From positions 7,107 through 71,106 of IMG/VR virus record IMGVR_UViG_3300020045_001617: DNA of 64,000 bases. One strand, written 5' to 3'. The notes beneath the pieces were generated by a model. The model had not been told where the DNA came from. It ran no database searches and was given only the letters and a program-made list of their open reading frames with translations. Within the stretch, counting starts at the first letter, position 1, and the number at the start of each line of letters is the position of its first letter. The stretch comes from a virus (Duplodnaviria > Caudoviricetes). The position numbers were made by a program, and so were the translations under genes. This document shows positions 54,593 through 64,000 of this stretch, in pieces.

Positions 54593-55314
54593 GCTGCTTC
54601 TCCGATGATCTTGAAGCGGACAATATGGTCGTCGGTCCGGCAGTTTTGGTAAGCCCACCAGTCCGCTCTGCCCACTTCCGTGGGGCCGAAACCGCTAGCC
54701 GCCTCGCCATCGGTGTCCTGATACCCGTCGCGGGTTTGAATATGGACCTTGGTATCCGGCTCAACGGGACACGGCCCGCCGTTCCAGTTGTACCATTTGC
54801 CGACTTCGAATACCGCTCGGTAGTCAGTGTCAATAGAACAAACGCGGCTACCCATCTTCCAGAGTACAGAGTTGACTTCCAAGGTGCGCGACGAGCGCAT
54901 CTGATATAGCCATCCAATTGGGAAATTTGGCGTAAGTTCATCGGTGGGCGTGACCCACGGGCCGAAGACGTACTGCGGCTTCTCGACCACCGGCATATCT
55001 GATGGTGCAATCAGTTCCTTCAGGTGTGCTTTCTGCTTGTCGAGGATGAACTGTACCAGTTCCCGATAACTGTCGTTGACATCACTGGTATCCAACCACT
55101 CAGCCACCAGTTTCTCAGCCTCGGATTTCTCCGGGGGATGAAGCAACGCCGCCAAGATGTCCATCGGATGCGTGGTGTAGGTCCACGTTTCGACGAGTTC
55201 GCCGGGACCGGGATGATAGGGCCGCCGCTTCCAATCGCGACGGTATTCCCCGCTACCCTTCAGCGCTTCAATACAGCGCTGCACAGTTGCGGCGTCGATG
55301 GGTGTCTCAGTCAC
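54589..55314 (-). CDS. Hypothetical multi-domain protein; N-terminus duplicated at 63828
   Basis: GTG start; C-terminal WNGGPCPV domain; paralog at the window end. Confidence 0.65.
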   Translation of the reverse strand: MTETPIDAATVQRCIEALKGSGEYRRDWKRRPYHPGPGELVETWTYTTHPMDILAALLHPPEKSEAEKLVAEWLDTSDVNDSYRELVQFILDKQKAHLKELIAPSDMPVVEKPQYVFGPWVTPTDELTPNFPIGWLYQMRSSRTLEVNSVLWKMGSRVCSIDTDYRAVFEVGKWYNWNGGPCPVEPDTKVHIQTRDGYQDTDGEAASGFGPTEVGRADWWAYQNCRTDDHIVRFKIIGEAA

Positions 55315-55345
55315 GGGCGATTTCCTTTTTGTATTGAGCGACTGC
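55142..55345. repeat. Inverted repeat arm A (left); partner 63797-64000+
   Basis: Reverse-complement near-identity with scattered substitutions. Confidence 0.9.
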
Positions 55346-55597
55346 GCGGGTGAGGGCGGCATTGTCTGAAATTTCTCCAGTTTTGTAGCCGTAAAATTGC
55401 GCAATAATCCGCTTCACCGCCTCAACATCAGGATCAACTGGCGGCTTGATTGGTGGGGCGATCAGGGCATCGCATAGGGCCTTGAATGATCCAAAATACG
55501 TTTCTCGTAGAACTTCCGGCTTGAGTTGACCCCACCCTGCCAGCTTCGCCGCTTCAATCAGCACCCAATCGGCTGGCATTGTCCCGTTAGTAGTCAC
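55307..55597 (-). CDS. Hypothetical protein, paralog of 63536-63835
   Basis: Shared DWVLIEAAK, PPVDPDVEAVKRI and RAVAQYKKEIARD. Confidence 0.7.
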   Translation of the reverse strand: MTTNGTMPADWVLIEAAKLAGWGQLKPEVLRETYFGSFKALCDALIAPPIKPPVDPDVEAVKRIIAQFYGYKTGEISDNAALTRAVAQYKKEIARD

Positions 55598-55821
55598 GCC
55601 ACTTCTCCCACCATCTCACGCTCGACGCGCTCGAACACGCAGTCGGGATCGCTGTTCCACCAGCAGGCGATCACAGTGCCCTCGTCGTCGGTGATTTCGA
55701 AGTCGTAGACAGTTGGTATCACTGACGGTGTGACTTCATATTCGCGGCCCACTGTGTAGGTGCCGAACATTGGCGCGTCGTCCAGAAGCGCGATTACGAG
55801 TGCGTATGTTTTCGTGGTCAC
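55594..55821 (-). CDS. Hypothetical protein (75 aa), near-identical paralog of 62998-63225
   Basis: GTG start after GGGAGCAACACA. Confidence 0.75.
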   Translation of the reverse strand: MTTKTYALVIALLDDAPMFGTYTVGREYEVTPSVIPTVYDFEITDDEGTVIACWWNSDPDCVFERVEREMVGEVA

Positions 55822-55864
55822 TGTGTTGCTCCCTAATGCCCCAACCGGGGGTCTGTGATTCACT

Positions 55865-55904
55865 TCCTAAGCGAGTCGGTGTTGGGTTGTCAACCGTGTG
55901 TTGA
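55865..55904 (-). promoter_or_regulatory. Triplicated early promoter (TTGACA) with operator and GANTC site
   Basis: TCAACACACGGTTGACAACCCAACACCGA(C/T)TCGC; other copies at 62049 and 62595. Confidence 0.7.
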
Positions 55905-56064
55905 AACTGTGTTGCGATTTCTCTGGGGTGGGGTCGGCGTAAATCGAGGAGCCGGTCACCTTTGTCCCTGATGTCGTCACGGGGGTCTTGTTCATTTCTT
56001 CGGGTGCCCTGCCCTGTCAGATCGACCAGTGGTGGTTGCGTCGCGCAGTTGCTGTCTACCAGTT

Positions 56065-56091
56065 GGACAGGACAGGACAGGACAGGACAGG
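56065..56091 (+). repeat. (GGACA)5 microsatellite
   Basis: Five perfect tandem pentamers. Confidence 0.9.
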
Positions 56092-56309
56092 GCAATCCGT
56101 TGCCCCTTCGCCGGTCGCATAGCGTCGCGTTGCCAGCCTATGCCGCGCCGCAAGATAGACGCGCGCCATTGTGCCCGGAAACGCGCCTGTTAGAGCGATT
56201 CCAAGCCACCGCCGTACCATAGCGGCCAAAAACAGGAGTCGCGCTCTAAGGCGCGTTTCCGGGCAATCTGTGGCCGTGTTATGCGAGCAACACACCTAGC
56301 GTCCGGATT

Positions 56310-61792: not shown

Positions 61793-62124
61793 GCGCGTCG
61801 CGGGTGTGTTAGTTGCCTAATACAGTGACACACCGCACATCGCTGCACTGGTCATCCTGAGCGCCTGAGCGCCGCACAACGCTGCACTGGCAGACCCGAC
61901 ACACCGCAGCCCAACTGGCCGAACGCAACACGACAACCGGCACCCCCAGTCCTCGATTTATCGTACACCCCATCCTCGATTTACGCTCTACGGGGATACG
62001 TCGATTCAGAAAACTTGGCGATGGGGTAGGAGAAATCGCAACACAGTTTCAACACACGGTTGACAACCCAACACCGATTCGCCATACCAAACCCAACAGA
62101 GACACACTGAGTCGGAGACAGCAC

Positions 62125-62283
62125 ATGGCACAGCAGTTTAAGATCGAAGGTTACGACAACCTCTTCGAAATCGTTGACCAGTCCAAGACGCAGACCCTCT
62201 ATGGGGCAATCGCGATGGTTGACGGCCAGCATGTGTATTCGTTCTACGTTACTCCTTTTCCTGACATGGTGGAGCCATACTGA
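62125..62283 (+). CDS. Hypothetical protein (52 aa; not in ORF track)
   Basis: GGAG RBS; follows the promoter copy at 62049. Confidence 0.55.
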   Translation: MAQQFKIEGYDNLFEIVDQSKTQTLYGAIAMVDGQHVYSFYVTPFPDMVEPY

Positions 62284-62609
62284 TGCTGATCGAGCATCCG
62301 CACATTGGCGACTGCTACAACGCAGATGGTATGTGGCGCATTATGGACGCACAATTCGAGTTCGTGGCCTCCGCCAGTTGGGGCGAGTATCGCCGGATCG
62401 AGAATAACGTGAACCGTGGGCAGTCTTGGCACACTACCAAGATCGTCGCGGCTGAGTCTGACTCGCTTGAGACGCTCAAAGTTTGGGCCGACAAGCAGCA
62501 GCGCGACGGGGCACACAATGTCGCATTTTACCGGACGTGGGAGATTAAAGACGGAAAGTTCGCCGGAAAGCGCGACAATGCACAACTATCAGTTTCAACA
62601 CACGGTTGA
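62283..62609 (+). CDS. Hypothetical protein
   Basis: TGATG coupling. Confidence 0.6.
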   Translation: MLIEHPHIGDCYNADGMWRIMDAQFEFVASASWGEYRRIENNVNRGQSWHTTKIVAAESDSLETLKVWADKQQRDGAHNVAFYRTWEIKDGKFAGKRDNAQLSVSTHG

Positions 62610-62678
62610 CAACCCAACACCGACTCGCTTAGGAAGTGAATCACAGACCCCCAGTCGGGGCATTAGGGAGCAAACACA

Positions 62679-63083
62679 GTGCCTGCCGCACCTCGCCGCA
62701 TTAAGACCATCTACACCAATCCTCGCAAGGGCACAAAAGCGCGTGCTGCGGTAAACCTGATGCTGCGCCGTGAGGGGGCGACTGCTGCTGAGATTGCCGA
62801 GCGCGTCGGGTATAACCGAGTCAACAGTATCTCCGCCATGTGTGAGGCACTGCGGAACGATAAAGGTTTCGACATCGCGGCGTTCCCCGTGGCTGGATCA
62901 GGCCACGTTGGTCGCCCACCTTCCGTATATAAAATCATCGGTCGTTACCGCTGCAACGGCAGCTACCGTTCCTTCGTTTCAATTGGAGAGCAACACAGTG
63001 ACCACGAAAACATACGCACTCGTAATCGCGCTTCTGGACGACGCGCCAATGTTCGGCACCTACACAGTGGGCCGCGAATATGA
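62679..63083 (+). CDS. HTH DNA-binding protein (cassette present only in the right arm)
   Basis: GATAAEIAERVGY...GRPPSVY; the 3' end reads into the duplicated downstream gene. Confidence 0.65.
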   Translation: MPAAPRRIKTIYTNPRKGTKARAAVNLMLRREGATAAEIAERVGYNRVNSISAMCEALRNDKGFDIAAFPVAGSGHVGRPPSVYKIIGRYRCNGSYRSFVSIGEQHSDHENIRTRNRASGRRANVRHLHSGPRI

Positions 63084-63225
63084 AGTCACACCGTCGGTGA
63101 TACCGACTGTCTACGACTTCGACATCACCGACGACGAGGGGACTGTGATCGCCTGCTGGTGGAACAGCGACCCTGACTGCGTGTTCGAGCGCATCGAGCG
63201 TGAGATGGTGGGAGAAGCAGCGTGA
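62998..63225 (+). CDS. Hypothetical protein (75 aa), paralog of 55594-55821
   Basis: GTG start; near-identical sequence. Confidence 0.75.
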   Translation: MTTKTYALVIALLDDAPMFGTYTVGREYEVTPSVIPTVYDFDITDDEGTVIACWWNSDPDCVFERIEREMVGEAA

Positions 63226-63539
63226 CCAGCACCATCGAAACCCACATTCTGCGCATGACCGTGGACGCGCTGCTGACGATCACGGGCAAGGTCGGACTCT
63301 GTTACGAGGACGACTGGGACGGTGATCTGACCATCACCGCAGAAACGTCATGGGAAACCATCCAAGCCGAAGCCTATGCCTGCGACTCCTGTACGCTGCG
63401 CGTCGGGTCGAAGTGGGTATGGTTTATCTGGGATAATGGGGAGGACGGGTTGACCTGCATCGCTGACTACACGGTGTCGCTAGAAGACGTGATGATGCCG
63501 GTGTTCGACTGGATCGAAGTGGAGGAGTCGGAACAGTGA
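63222..63539 (+). CDS. Acidic hypothetical protein (present only in the right arm)
   Basis: GTGA overlaps at both ends. Confidence 0.65.
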   Translation: MTSTIETHILRMTVDALLTITGKVGLCYEDDWDGDLTITAETSWETIQAEAYACDSCTLRVGSKWVWFIWDNGEDGLTCIADYTVSLEDVMMPVFDWIEVEESEQ

Positions 63540-63835
63540 CTGATACACCCCCTGATTGGGTGCTGATTGAAGCTGCGAAGCGGAGTGGGTGGGATTGGGC
63601 CACACCGTCCATCACTATCGAAACTTACAAAGAGAACGGTCCATTCCGCGCCCTCTGCGACATGATCGCCAAGCACGAACAGCCGCCGGTTGATCCCGAT
63701 GTTGAGGCGGTGAAGCGGATCTTGGAAGCGTACTGGCCGAAGATGGCTCGACATGGCACCAGATACCTCGAAGGACATTTTCTCGACCTCGACCGTGCCG
63801 TCGCCCAATACAAAAAGGAAATCGCCCGTGACTGA
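63536..63835 (+). CDS. Hypothetical protein, paralog of 55307-55597
   Basis: Shared motifs; diverged middle. Confidence 0.7.
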   Translation: MTDTPPDWVLIEAAKRSGWDWATPSITIETYKENGPFRALCDMIAKHEQPPVDPDVEAVKRILEAYWPKMARHGTRYLEGHFLDLDRAVAQYKKEIARD

Positions 63836-64000
63836 GACACCCATCGACGCCGCAACTGTGCAGCGCTGTATTGATGCGCTGAAGGGTAGCGGGGAATACC
63901 GTCGCGATTGGAAACGGCAGACGAATCAGCGCGGACCCGGCAAACTGGTCGAAACGTGGACGTACACCACGCACCCCACGGACATCTTGGCGGCGTTGCT
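63828..64000 (+). CDS. Paralog of 54589-55314, 3'-truncated by window edge
   Basis: MTETPIDAATVQRCIDALKGSGEYRRDWKR... Confidence 0.75.
   Translation, partial: MTETPIDAATVQRCIDALKGSGEYRRDWKRQTNQRGPGKLVETWTYTTHPTDILAAL

What the first reader, a model, noticed from the sequence alone, without database searches (positions are those of the whole stretch)
55142..64000. Mirror-symmetric early region built from five nested imperfect inverted repeats
Seen, in strictly nested order: A 55142-55345/63797-64000+; B 55594-55925/62590-62681+62987-63225; C 56310-56400/61743-61834; D 56414-56581/61286-61452; E 57885-57975/60144-60234. Transcription diverges from 59.4-59.75 kb. The arms share promoters, terminators and four paralogous genes but have different genes between the shared blocks; copies differ by a few percent, so this is not a simple assembly duplication. 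Inference: two parallel early operons on a shared regulatory scaffold. Homologous recombination between arms would invert the centre (genome isomers) and let cassettes move or convert between arms. If the genome ends lie at the centre, both ends carry equivalent early regions.
Basis: partly seen in the sequence, partly recalled or inferred. Interest (0 to 1): 0.8.

Follow-up and report, generated by a model that had tools for sequence, protein, structure and literature searches.

The report
Mirrored gene blocks in phage arms
An uncultured temperate tailed phage has two outward-reading sets of small genes that share, in mirror order, three control elements and four gene pairs; the pattern is real and is probably an inverted copy of part of one arm added to the other, which makes it an interesting variant of known phage gene shuffling rather than a new kind of system.

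Summary
All five nested inverted blocks are at the stated coordinates (79-98% identity, BLAST E 1e-18 to 1e-111).

The window ends at the end of a 71,106-bp virus contig. It is a temperate Casjensviridae-like siphophage built like the Rhodobacter RcD-cluster phages. Those phages have a leftward arm, a gene-free centre and a rightward arm running to the right cohesive end.

Two genes unique to the right arm have homologues in the RcD right arm, on the same strand. A fold-back assembly chimera is therefore unlikely.

The shared blocks are:
- E: a whole intergenic spacer that can hide the next ribosome-binding site.
- C: a hairpin plus U-run terminator.
- P: a TTGACA promoter-like box under a TCAAC-N5-GTTGA palindrome.
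- Four gene pairs: D, B, A1 and A2.

The gene pairs are under purifying selection (dN/dS 0.15-0.37, pS 0.11-0.17). The non-coding blocks differ by only 2.5%, so they look constrained.

Best reading: the left-arm segment D to A2 was copied in inverted order onto the far end of the right arm, where A2 is cut at the contig end. It was later changed by cassette insertions at start-codon joints and by an allele swap of A1.

Inversion isomers are possible (perfect matches up to 108 bp) but untested. The idea that the genome ends lie at the centre is not supported. No relative examined shows such arm-to-arm blocks. The scan has noted PeSL-like cassette designs before, on other phage DNA.

The parts
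59332..59752 (.). Gene-free centre from which the two arms diverge. It holds direct repeats: CCTGCCATGCCTRCCAATGGGCTTG twice, 92 nt apart, plus a partial third copy, and five to six TTTRTCTTAAG-like motifs. It contains no inverted repeat.
57972..59331 (-). Near part of the left arm, unique genes: 59116-59331 (71-aa membrane-like), 58894-59103 (69 aa), 58138-58746 (202 aa, with a homologue in Rhizobium phage RHph_X2_30) and 57972-58124 (50 aa).
57885..57976 (-). Block E, left copy. It is the whole intergenic spacer, from the stop codon of the upstream gene to the ribosome-binding site GGGAGT of the next gene. A strong hairpin sits inside a helix that pairs ACUCCC with GGGAGU.
60143..60234 (+). 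Block E, right copy, with 2 differences in 92 nt.
56566..57878 (-). Cassette unique to the left arm, between E and D: 57654-57878, 56733-57638 (301 aa) and 56566-56736 (56 aa).
56414..56566 (-). Gene D, left copy: a 50-aa protein with two hydrophobic stretches.
61300..61452 (+). Gene D, right copy: 94% aa identity, pS 0.157, dN/dS 0.16.
56310..56400 (-). Block C, left copy: a GC-rich hairpin followed by UUUUCUUUU (an intrinsic-terminator shape), then a second hairpin.
61745..61835 (+). Block C, right copy, with 3 differences in 91 nt.
55825..55923 (-). Block P, left copy: a TTGACA box overlapped by the palindrome TCAAC-N5-GTTGA, then a leader with a small hairpin and the ribosome-binding site GGGAG.
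62030..62082 (+). Block P, first right copy (promoter/operator part only). It drives a cassette unique to the right arm, 62125-62609.
62590..62681 (+). Block P, second right copy, with the full leader. Its only base changes against the left copy (2, plus a 1-nt indel near the ribosome-binding site) lie in the hairpin loop.
55594..55821 (-). Gene B, left copy: 75 aa, acidic.
62998..63225 (+). Gene B, right copy: pS 0.114, dN/dS 0.15. It holds the longest perfect inverted match between the arms, 108 bp.
55307..55597 (-). Gene A1, left copy: 96 aa. It belongs to a family found on 61 IMG/VR contigs, and its closest allele is on contig L018.
63536..63835 (+). Gene A1, right copy: 99 aa and only 55-63% identical to the left copy. 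It is a different allele type.
54589..55314 (-). Gene A2, left copy: complete, 241 aa. Its family has 22 members, the nearest 50% identical.
63828..64000 (+). Gene A2, right copy: only the first 57 codons, cut by the contig end. If the ends are joined it stops 3 codons into the genome start.
59753..61300 (+). Near part of the right arm, unique genes. 59959-60147 and 60651-61097 have homologues in the right arm of RcD phages. In the three RcD phages examined, the homologue of 60651-61097 is the last right-arm gene.
61468..61731 (+). Cassette found only in the right arm (87 aa), between D and C.
62679..63083 (+). Cassette found only in the right arm: a 134-aa protein with weak helix-turn-helix / DUF3489 matches below Pfam's cut-offs. 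It is inserted exactly at the start codon of gene B, bounded by GCAA(A)CACAGTG on both sides.
63222..63539 (+). Cassette found only in the right arm (105 aa, phrog_4158). It is inserted at the GTGA stop/start overlap between B and A1, bounded by GTGAC on both sides.

Best explanation
This is the variable early-gene end of a temperate Casjensviridae-like siphophage with cohesive ends. Small genes are read outward in two arms from a gene-free centre, and the right arm runs to the right end of the genome.

The mirror symmetry has two sources.

1. A left-arm segment of about 1.4 kb was copied in inverted order onto the far end of the right arm, next to the genome end. The segment is gene D, terminator C, promoter/operator P, gene B, gene A1 and the start of gene A2. 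A2 is cut off in the copy.

2. A standard intergenic spacer, E, is used in both arms.

Later changes to the copy:
- It gained four cassettes, two of them inserted exactly at ribosome-binding-site or start-codon joints.
- Gene A1 was swapped for another allele that circulates among related phages.

How the arms work (inferred):
- Each arm has a near unit that ends at terminator C, and a far unit that restarts at P.
- P carries the same palindrome as two other leftward promoter-like sites in the left-arm operon. The far units of both arms would therefore be shut off together by one repressor.
- E hides the next gene's ribosome-binding site in a helix that begins one base after the upstream stop codon. 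Translation of the downstream gene would then depend on translation of the upstream gene.

Shown: the sequence layout, the homologies, the selection statistics and the synteny. Inferred: the direction of copying, the functions of the elements and the position of the genome ends.
For: - The blocks are real and collinear.
- The genome type and architecture are shared with relatives. Terminase is 53% identical to Rhizobium phage RHph_X2_30. Primase lies on the minus strand at 1.3-3.8 kb, as in 23 RcD-type Rhodobacter phage records, where it lies at 0.7-5.8 kb (all but one at 0.7-3.6 kb) and is annotated as gene 1 in several. The eight published RcD phages have defined 12-nt 5' overhangs.
- RcPescado, RcJoli and RcCWillis all have a minus arm, a divergence point and a plus arm that reaches the right end.
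- Genes unique to the right arm match RcD right-arm genes on the plus strand. 59959-60147 is 54% identical to a CWillis right-arm gene (record 67047-67232), E 5e-19. 60651-61097 is 36-49% identical to the last right-arm gene of each of the three phages. The D-to-A2 copy therefore lies beyond the ancestral end of the arm.
- A2 is whole on the left (241 aa) and cut after 57 codons on the right. This gives the direction of copying.
- The three gene pairs have similar synonymous divergence (pS 0.157, 0.114, 0.169) and dN/dS of 0.16, 0.15 and 0.37. That fits one event, with both copies kept in use.
- Non-coding E, C and P differ at 6 of 236 positions, against 18 of 126 synonymous sites (Fisher p = 6e-5).
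- Block edges coincide with stop codons, ribosome-binding sites and start codons. Insertions are bounded by short repeats of the joint sequence.
- A1-left groups with the allele on contig L018 (support 96/95), inside a clade (support 97/94) that leaves out A1-right.
- The palindrome has 5 perfect copies, all before early genes. With up to one mismatch there are 12 matches against 2.65 expected.
- Terminator C is found by the scan and by the fold. E folds better than shuffled sequence (z -3.0 and -3.8).
Against: - There is only one metagenomic assembly of this phage. The A2 cluster has one member on one contig, and no reads are available.
- No relative carries these blocks, so neither the copy event nor any exchange can be dated or seen in action.
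- E lies among right-arm genes of RcD type, so one duplication cannot explain all five blocks.
- Perfect inverted repeats of up to 108 bp mean that a short-read assembler could have placed the inner segments in either orientation.
- Low divergence of the non-coding blocks could come from recent gene conversion rather than from constraint.
- Promoter, terminator, operator and coupling functions are read from sequence only. The -10 box of P is poor by the E. coli consensus.
- The contig ends are placed at the physical ends by synteny only. The RHph_X2_30 record ends elsewhere.
Confidence: 0.6

Rival explanations
1. Separate acquisition through shared linker sequences. E, C, P and the conserved gene ends are standard joints shared by a population of related phages. 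Each arm picked up its copies separately by homologous recombination with other phages, so no arm-to-arm duplication ever took place.
For: - Block edges sit exactly at gene joints.
- The two A1 copies are different circulating alleles, and the family is mosaic across contigs of one sample.
- RcD phages carry repeated intergenic elements in the variable right arm.
- E is interleaved with native right-arm genes.
Against: - Six shared items lie in the same order in both arms.
- Synonymous divergence is similar in three gene pairs.
- None of the blocks other than A1 was found in any other contig. Exact-pattern scans of the viral and metagenome collections, and BLASTN against 61 A1-bearing loci, gave nothing.
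- The truncated A2 at the very end of the arm looks like the edge of a copied segment.
Confidence: 0.2
2. Assembly artefact. The right arm is the left arm of a second strain, joined in reverse at the centre by a fold-back error, and the true genome has no such right arm.
For: - A pattern of conserved blocks with unrelated cassettes is what two strains would show.
- The contig has no end repeat and stops inside the copied A2 gene. Its last 21 nt are identical to the left copy.
- Related phages co-occur in sample 3300020045.
- There is no second assembly.
Against: - Cultured relatives have a real rightward arm at this place.
- Two genes unique to the right arm match RcD right-arm genes on the same strand.
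- The centre has no inverted repeat that could act as a pivot, and it is spanned by direct repeats.
- The right arm's first gene has its own leader and ribosome-binding site.
- The contig's left end is syntenic with defined left ends.
- The nearest co-occurring relative is only 69% identical in DNA next to the arms.
Confidence: 0.07
3. An active inversion switch. The nested repeats exist because the phage regularly flips the inner segments by general recombination. This would produce a mixed population of isomers that re-sorts cassettes between arms, and the symmetry would be selected for that purpose.
For: - Perfect inverted matches of 108, 69, 63, 56 and 48 bp are long enough for RecA-type recombination.
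- Any flip keeps every gene reading outward from the centre.
Against: - No invertase or other recombinase was found among the arm genes.
- The copies have diverged by 2-5%, and by 14% at synonymous sites, so homogenisation is not frequent.
- The assembler produced one isomer.
- There is no evidence from relatives.
Confidence: 0.05

Closest known systems
RcD-cluster Rhodobacter capsulatus phages (RcPescado, RcJoli, RcCWillis and others; Casjensviridae; Rapala et al. 2021, PMC8601537)
   Same: - Genome of 66-69 kb, with cohesive ends defined for the eight published members.
- Primase on the minus strand at the left end.
- A long leftward arm of small genes, a divergence point, and a rightward arm of small genes reaching the right end.
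[quoted passage not shown]
- Two right-arm genes are homologous to ours.
   Different: - Their repeats are direct and lie within the right arm. BLASTN found no inverted repeat between the arms in the three phages checked.
- Their right arm is about 10 kb, against 4.4 kb here.
- Proteins are only about 40-55% identical.
- Our phage has a PAPS-reductase-like gene after primase, as Rhizobium phage RHph_X2_30 does.
PeSL (promoter-early stem-loop) regulatory cassettes of T4-type phages (Arbiol et al. 2010, PMC2839356; Comeau et al. 2014, PMC4122927)
   Same: - Conserved terminator and promoter elements flank small genes of unknown function in a variable region.
- Insertions and replacements end at these elements, so the elements serve as points of homologous exchange (for the papers; here).
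   Different: - PeSLs are compact terminator-plus-promoter units present in many direct copies in lytic myoviruses.
- Here the terminator (C) and the promoter-like element (P) lie 195-390 nt apart, and each occurs only 2-3 times.
- The copies are inverted across two arms, and whole genes are shared as well.
- The joints used for insertion are ribosome-binding-site or start-codon sequences.
- Mini-circles could not be tested.
Lambdoid divergent early operons (PL/PR with OL/OR, nutL/nutR; HK022 putL/putR), from general knowledge
   Same: Two outward early transcription units carry the same operator sequence, and the same transcribed RNA element, in mirror orientation.
   Different: - No repressor gene lies between the arms. 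The HTH_3 candidate is about 54 kb away.
- The operator-bearing promoters lie 2.3-3.4 kb out from the centre, not at it.
- The shared blocks are far longer and include genes.
- No anti-termination function has been shown for E.
Invertible segments of phages Mu (G), P1 (C) and plasmid shufflons, from general knowledge
   Same: Inverted repeats flank a DNA segment whose flip would re-pair gene parts.
   Different: - Those systems use a dedicated serine or tyrosine invertase acting on short sites, and they switch tail-fibre or pilin ends.
- Here there is no invertase, the repeats are long and diverged, and no coding sequence is re-joined.

Membership tests
RcD-type Casjensviridae genome architecture | Primase/polymerase gene on the minus strand within a few kb of the left genome end | tested here: met
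   Ours lies at genome 1290-3809, minus strand. In 23 RcD-type records it lies at 0.7-5.8 kb on the minus strand (22 of them at 0.7-3.6 kb) and is annotated as gene 1 in several.
RcD-type Casjensviridae genome architecture | A leftward and a rightward arm of small genes diverge near the right end, and the rightward arm reaches the end | tested here: met
   for RcPescado, RcCWillis and RcJoli. for this contig.
RcD-type Casjensviridae genome architecture | Defined cohesive ends with a 12-nt 5' overhang | not testable with these tools
   This needs reads. There is no end repeat, and the end sequences are unlike those of RcPescado.
PeSL-type mobile regulatory cassettes | A compact unit that joins a stem-loop terminator to a sigma-70-like early promoter | tested here: not met
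   Terminator C and the promoter-like P are separate blocks, 195 nt (right arm) and 387 nt (left arm) apart.
PeSL-type mobile regulatory cassettes | Many copies spread through the variable regions | tested here: not met
   E has 2 copies, C has 2 and P has 3, with no further copies in the 71-kb genome.
PeSL-type mobile regulatory cassettes | Insertions and replacements end at the conserved elements | tested here: met
   All arm-to-arm differences begin and end at block edges or at repeated joint sequences.
Lambdoid-type divergent early control | The same operator sequence at the promoters of both arms | tested here: met
   TCAAC-N5-GTTGA lies over the TTGACA box at 55890, 62049 and 62595, and at two further leftward promoter-like sites. 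Binding has not been tested.
Lambdoid-type divergent early control | A repressor gene lies between the divergent promoters | tested here: not met
   The centre, 59332-59752, has no gene. The HTH_3 protein is at 4956-5642.
Site-specific invertible segment (Gin/Cin/shufflon) | An invertase gene next to the segment | tested here: not met
   No recombinase match for any arm gene in Pfam or PHROGs. The only integrase is at 9584-10738.
Terminal inverted repeats of linear phage genomes | The two copies lie at the two genome ends | tested here: not met
   The left copies lie 8-9 kb inside the contig. The genome start has no similarity to either arm.
Fold-back assembly chimera | A palindromic pivot at the centre, and an orientation that conflicts with relatives | tested here: not met
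   No inverted repeat longer than 19 nt lies within the centre region (a 31-nt, 71% match pairs it with gene 58138-58746). The right-arm genes match right-arm genes of RcD phages. Reads are not available for a direct test.

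The most novel reading that the evidence does not exclude
The nested repeats may be a working recombination scaffold. General recombination between the 48-108-bp perfect inverted matches would regularly flip nested segments. A lysate would then be a mix of up to about 2^5 isomers, in which accessory cassettes are re-dealt between the two arms and between the near and the repressor-controlled far units. 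That would be a shuffling device without any dedicated recombinase. In addition, E may be a portable translational-coupling module.
Probability: 0.12. Interest if true: 0.65.

Novelty: new variant of a known kind. Interest (0 to 1): 0.4.

Why it matters
It gives a clean single-genome example of how the variable early regions of temperate phages are built. Whole control elements (a spacer, a terminator and an operator-promoter) and small genes were reused in mirror order on two arms, and new genes were slotted in exactly at ribosome-binding-site or start-codon joints.

The non-coding blocks are more conserved than synonymous sites. That marks them as candidate control elements worth testing in a phage group (Casjensviridae of alphaproteobacteria) whose regulation is almost unstudied.

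If isomers exist, the layout would also be a warning for short-read assembly of such phages. It would show a simple way for accessory genes to move between differently regulated units.

Tried and rejected
I could not look for independent assemblies of this phage or for contigs that extend past the contig end.
- megablast of the region against cultured phages found nothing.
- tblastn and the search for related loci with A2 found nothing in phages or viral contigs.
- Exact-pattern scans gave no hit: block E in viral contigs and block P in metagenome contigs.
- Loci found through the MazG-like neighbour gene share only that gene and have no arm repeats.
- A 65-kb contig found through the 202-aa gene shares only that gene.
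- The closest relative by terminase (88% aa, a 44-kb contig) stops 44 nt short of where the arms would begin.
- Rfam gave only two sub-threshold ctRNA_p42d matches, both to the terminator hairpin of C.
- Pfam, PHROGs and the ESM Atlas gave no function for A1, A2, B or most cassettes.
- Literature searches for RHph_X2_30, and for Casjensviridae with cohesive ends, found nothing.
- The E. coli-type promoter scan was no better than chance in this region (8 found, 8.2 expected), so promoter calls rest on the TTGACA/palindrome context only.
- I considered and dropped a CtrA-box reading of the TTAA-rich centre motifs, because the spacing does not fit.
- I also dropped the idea that the 21-nt identity at the contig end marks a k-mer break. 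Much longer exact repeats were assembled through.

Full report
**Observation.** The five nested inverted repeats exist at the stated places. The repeat finder, a BLASTN self-comparison of the whole 71-kb genome and an arm-against-arm BLASTN all agree.

| Block | Left | Right | Identity |
|---|---|---|---|
| A | 55142-55488 | 63642-64000 | 79% over 364 nt |
| B | 55593-55837 | 62982-63226 | 96% |
| B/P | 55819-55909 | 62590-62681 | 97% |
| P (extra copy) | 55871-55923 | 62030-62082 | 98% |
| C | 56310-56400 | 61745-61835 | 97% |
| D | 56416-56580 | 61286-61450 | 95% |
| E | 57885-57976 | 60143-60234 | 98% |

E-values run from 1e-18 to 1e-111. There are no further copies in the genome, and the sequence between the blocks is unrelated in the two arms.

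**Where the window lies.** The window is bases 7107-71106 of a 71,106-bp IMG/VR virus record without end repeats. CheckV estimates it as 100% complete. The right arm therefore ends at the contig end, and block A is cut there.

**What the genome is.** PHROG matches show DNA polymerase, helicase, terminase, tape measure, tail proteins, ribonucleotide reductase and thymidylate synthase. Pfam shows a tyrosine integrase and an HTH_3 protein. This is a temperate siphophage.

- The terminase is 53% identical to that of Rhizobium phage RHph_X2_30, and about 50% identical to other Casjensviridae of alphaproteobacteria.
- The genome is collinear with RHph_X2_30 except in the arm region.
- The primase search was the most useful step. 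In 23 RcD-type Rhodobacter capsulatus phage records the primase lies on the minus strand at 0.7-5.8 kb, all but one at 0.7-3.6 kb, and it is annotated as gene 1 in several. Ours lies at 1290-3809, minus strand.
- The eight RcD phages in the published study have experimentally defined 12-nt 5' overhangs. [quoted passage not shown]

**Architecture in relatives.** RcPescado, RcCWillis and RcJoli all show a long leftward arm, a divergence point at 57-59 kb, and a rightward arm of about 10 kb that reaches the right end. In the RcCWillis record the arm runs on over the record start and meets the primase operon head-on.

Our contig has the same plan:
- The leftward arm starts at 59331.
- The centre, 59332-59752, is gene-free.
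- The rightward arm runs from 59753 to the contig end.
- The genome start carries the terminator of the minus-strand primase operon.

**Is it an assembly artefact?** I took this rival seriously. Conserved blocks with unrelated cassettes are what two strains would show, and the contig stops inside a copied gene. Four results speak against it:

- Two genes unique to the right arm have homologues in the right arm of RcD phages, on the same strand. 59959-60147 is 54% identical (E 5e-19) to an RcCWillis right-arm gene. 60651-61097 is 36-49% identical to the last right-arm gene of all three phages.
- The centre holds no inverted repeat longer than 19 nt that could act as a fold-back pivot. It is spanned by direct repeats instead.
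- The contig's left end is syntenic with defined left ends.
- The only co-occurring close relative (terminase 88% aa) is just 69% identical in DNA next to the arms.

A direct test needs reads. I put the artefact at about 7%.

**Anatomy of the shared blocks.**

*Block E* is exactly one intergenic spacer. It begins at the TAA stop of the upstream gene and ends just after the ribosome-binding site GGGAGT of the next gene. It folds better than shuffled sequence (z -3.0 and -3.8). The fold is a long hairpin enclosed by a helix that pairs ACUCCC, one base after the stop codon, with GGGAGU. A ribosome finishing the upstream gene would open that helix. I read E as a translational-coupling module, which is an inference.

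*Block C* is a GC-rich hairpin followed by UUUUCUUUU in the direction of transcription in both arms, then a second hairpin. Rfam gives only sub-threshold ctRNA_p42d matches to it.

*Block P* has a TTGACA box overlapped by the palindrome TCAAC-N5-GTTGA. The window holds five perfect copies of this palindrome: three in P, and two over other leftward promoter-like sites at 49095 and 53766. With one mismatch allowed there are 12 matches against 2.65 expected, and no shuffle out of 100 reached 12. The only base changes between the left copy of P and the second right copy lie in the loop of a small leader hairpin; a one-base indel near the ribosome-binding site is the sole other difference.

**The four gene pairs**:
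- D: 50 aa, with two hydrophobic stretches.
- B: 75 aa.
- A1: 96 and 99 aa.
- A2: 241 aa on the left, and only 57 codons on the right.

**Selection.**

| Pair | pS | dN/dS |
|---|---|---|
| D | 0.157 | 0.16 |
| B | 0.114 | 0.15 |
| A2 (start) | 0.169 | 0.37 |

Both copies have been kept under purifying selection, and the similar pS values fit one event. The non-coding blocks E, C and P differ at only 6 of 236 positions, against 18 of about 126 synonymous sites (Fisher p = 6e-5). They are either constrained control elements or were made alike more recently by gene conversion. The data cannot separate the two.

**A1 is different.** The two A1 copies are only 55-63% identical. The family occurs on 61 IMG/VR contigs, sometimes as tandem direct pairs. 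In a maximum-likelihood tree, A1-left is sister to the allele on contig L018 (support 96/95). Both lie inside a clade of alleles from sample 3300020045 (support 97/94) that leaves out A1-right. The sequences are visibly mosaic. At least one A1 copy was therefore replaced by exchange with another phage. The likely crossover points are the conserved gene ends, including a 69-bp perfect match at the A1/A2 joint.

**Cassette joints.** The right arm carries extra genes at exact joints.
- The helix-turn-helix-like gene 62679-63083 starts at the very GTG that starts gene B on the left. It is bounded by GCAA(A)CACAGTG on both sides.
- Gene 63222-63539 sits in the GTGA stop/start overlap between B and A1, bounded by GTGAC.
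- An 87-aa gene sits between D and C.
- P is doubled in the right arm, with a two-gene cassette between the copies.

**Best explanation.** In the RcD phages the homologue of 60651-61097 is the last gene of the right arm. In our phage, D, C, P, B, A1 and the start of A2 follow it.

Three facts point to one event in which the left-arm segment 55142-56580 was copied in inverted order onto the far end of the right arm, next to the genome end:
- A2 is whole on the left and truncated on the right.
- The order of the blocks is identical in the two arms.
- The pS values are similar.

The copy was later changed by cassette insertions and by the A1 swap. E lies among native right-arm genes, so it is better seen as a standard spacer used in both arms.

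Functionally, each arm would have a near unit ending at C, and a far unit restarting at P under a common repressor.

Confidence is about 0.6. The main rival (0.2) is that all blocks are population-wide linkers acquired separately by each arm.

- *Inversion isomers.* Perfect inverted matches of 108, 69, 63, 56 and 48 bp are long enough for general recombination, and any flip would keep all genes reading outward. Isomers are therefore possible, but nothing here shows them. No invertase is present. The same repeats also mean that a short-read assembly cannot by itself fix the orientation of the inner segments.
- *Genome ends at the centre.* This is not supported. Synteny puts the ends at the contig ends.

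**Relatives.** None of the relatives examined has inverted repeats between its arms. These were three RcD phages, RHph_X2_30, the MazG-linked loci and a 65-kb contig. Within the reach of these collections, the mirror blocks are particular to this phage.

**Comparison with known systems.** It works most like the PeSL cassettes of T4-type phages (PMC2839356, PMC4122927), where conserved control elements serve as points of exchange. It also resembles the mirrored operators and nut/put sites of lambdoid early operons. It is a member of neither class; the membership table gives the tests. Other notes of this scan have filed compact terminator-operator-promoter cassettes in other phages under the same comparison.

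**Verdict.** The feature is real. It is a new variant of a known kind and of moderate interest.

Noticed in passing
window 59428-59590; L081 and L084 (RcCWillis): The centre repeat CCTGCCATGCCTRCCAATGGGCTTG contains the 10-mer CTGCCATGCC. RcCWillis carries the same 10-mer nine times, always in one orientation, in the repeat tracts at its right end and at record positions 56-2214. It may be a conserved protein-binding iteron, for an origin or for packaging.
   Followed up: partly
window 59351-59715: Five to six TTTRTCTTAAG-like motifs, all in the same orientation, span the whole gene-free centre. Two are exact 14-mers 15 nt apart. Their function is unknown.
   Followed up: no
L080-L082 (RcPescado, RcCWillis, RcJoli right ends): In RcCWillis and RcJoli the last 84 and 129 nt of the record are repeated exactly 2.4 and 1.4 kb upstream. 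RcPescado has a 206-nt, 99.5% direct repeat near its end. RcCWillis also has about five copies of an 84-nt intergenic element in its right arm.
   Followed up: partly
window 54377-54658 (-): A 93-aa reading frame consists of little more than a Walker-A P-loop (AAA_29 just above the Pfam cut-off). It overlaps the ends of A2 and of the MazG-like gene.
   Followed up: no
L018-L078: The A1 family (no Pfam match; motifs DWVLIEAAK and PPVDPDVEAVKR) occurs on 61 IMG/VR contigs. Stretches of 40-170 nt are 70-98% identical in DNA between otherwise unrelated contigs. L024, L025, L051 and L054 carry tandem direct pairs.
   Followed up: partly
L092 (contig IMGVR_UViG_3300020045_001891): The closest relative found (terminase 88% aa) is a 44-kb contig. 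It breaks 44 nt from the homologue of gene 53081-53719, just before the place where the arms would start.
   Followed up: no
genome 1-90 (L079): The contig starts with two hairpins, CCCGTAACGGG and CCCCGCCGAAGCGGGG. The second is followed by a T-run on the minus strand and is the terminator of the primase operon. If the ends are joined, the cut A2 copy stops 3 codons into this sequence.
   Followed up: partly
L005/L006 (RHph_X2_30 record ends): The motif ATCACAGCGTTAC is repeated on both sides of the record ends of RHph_X2_30. A 107-nt imperfect inverted repeat lies at 69284-69590, and tandem repeats lie at 69-369.
   Followed up: no
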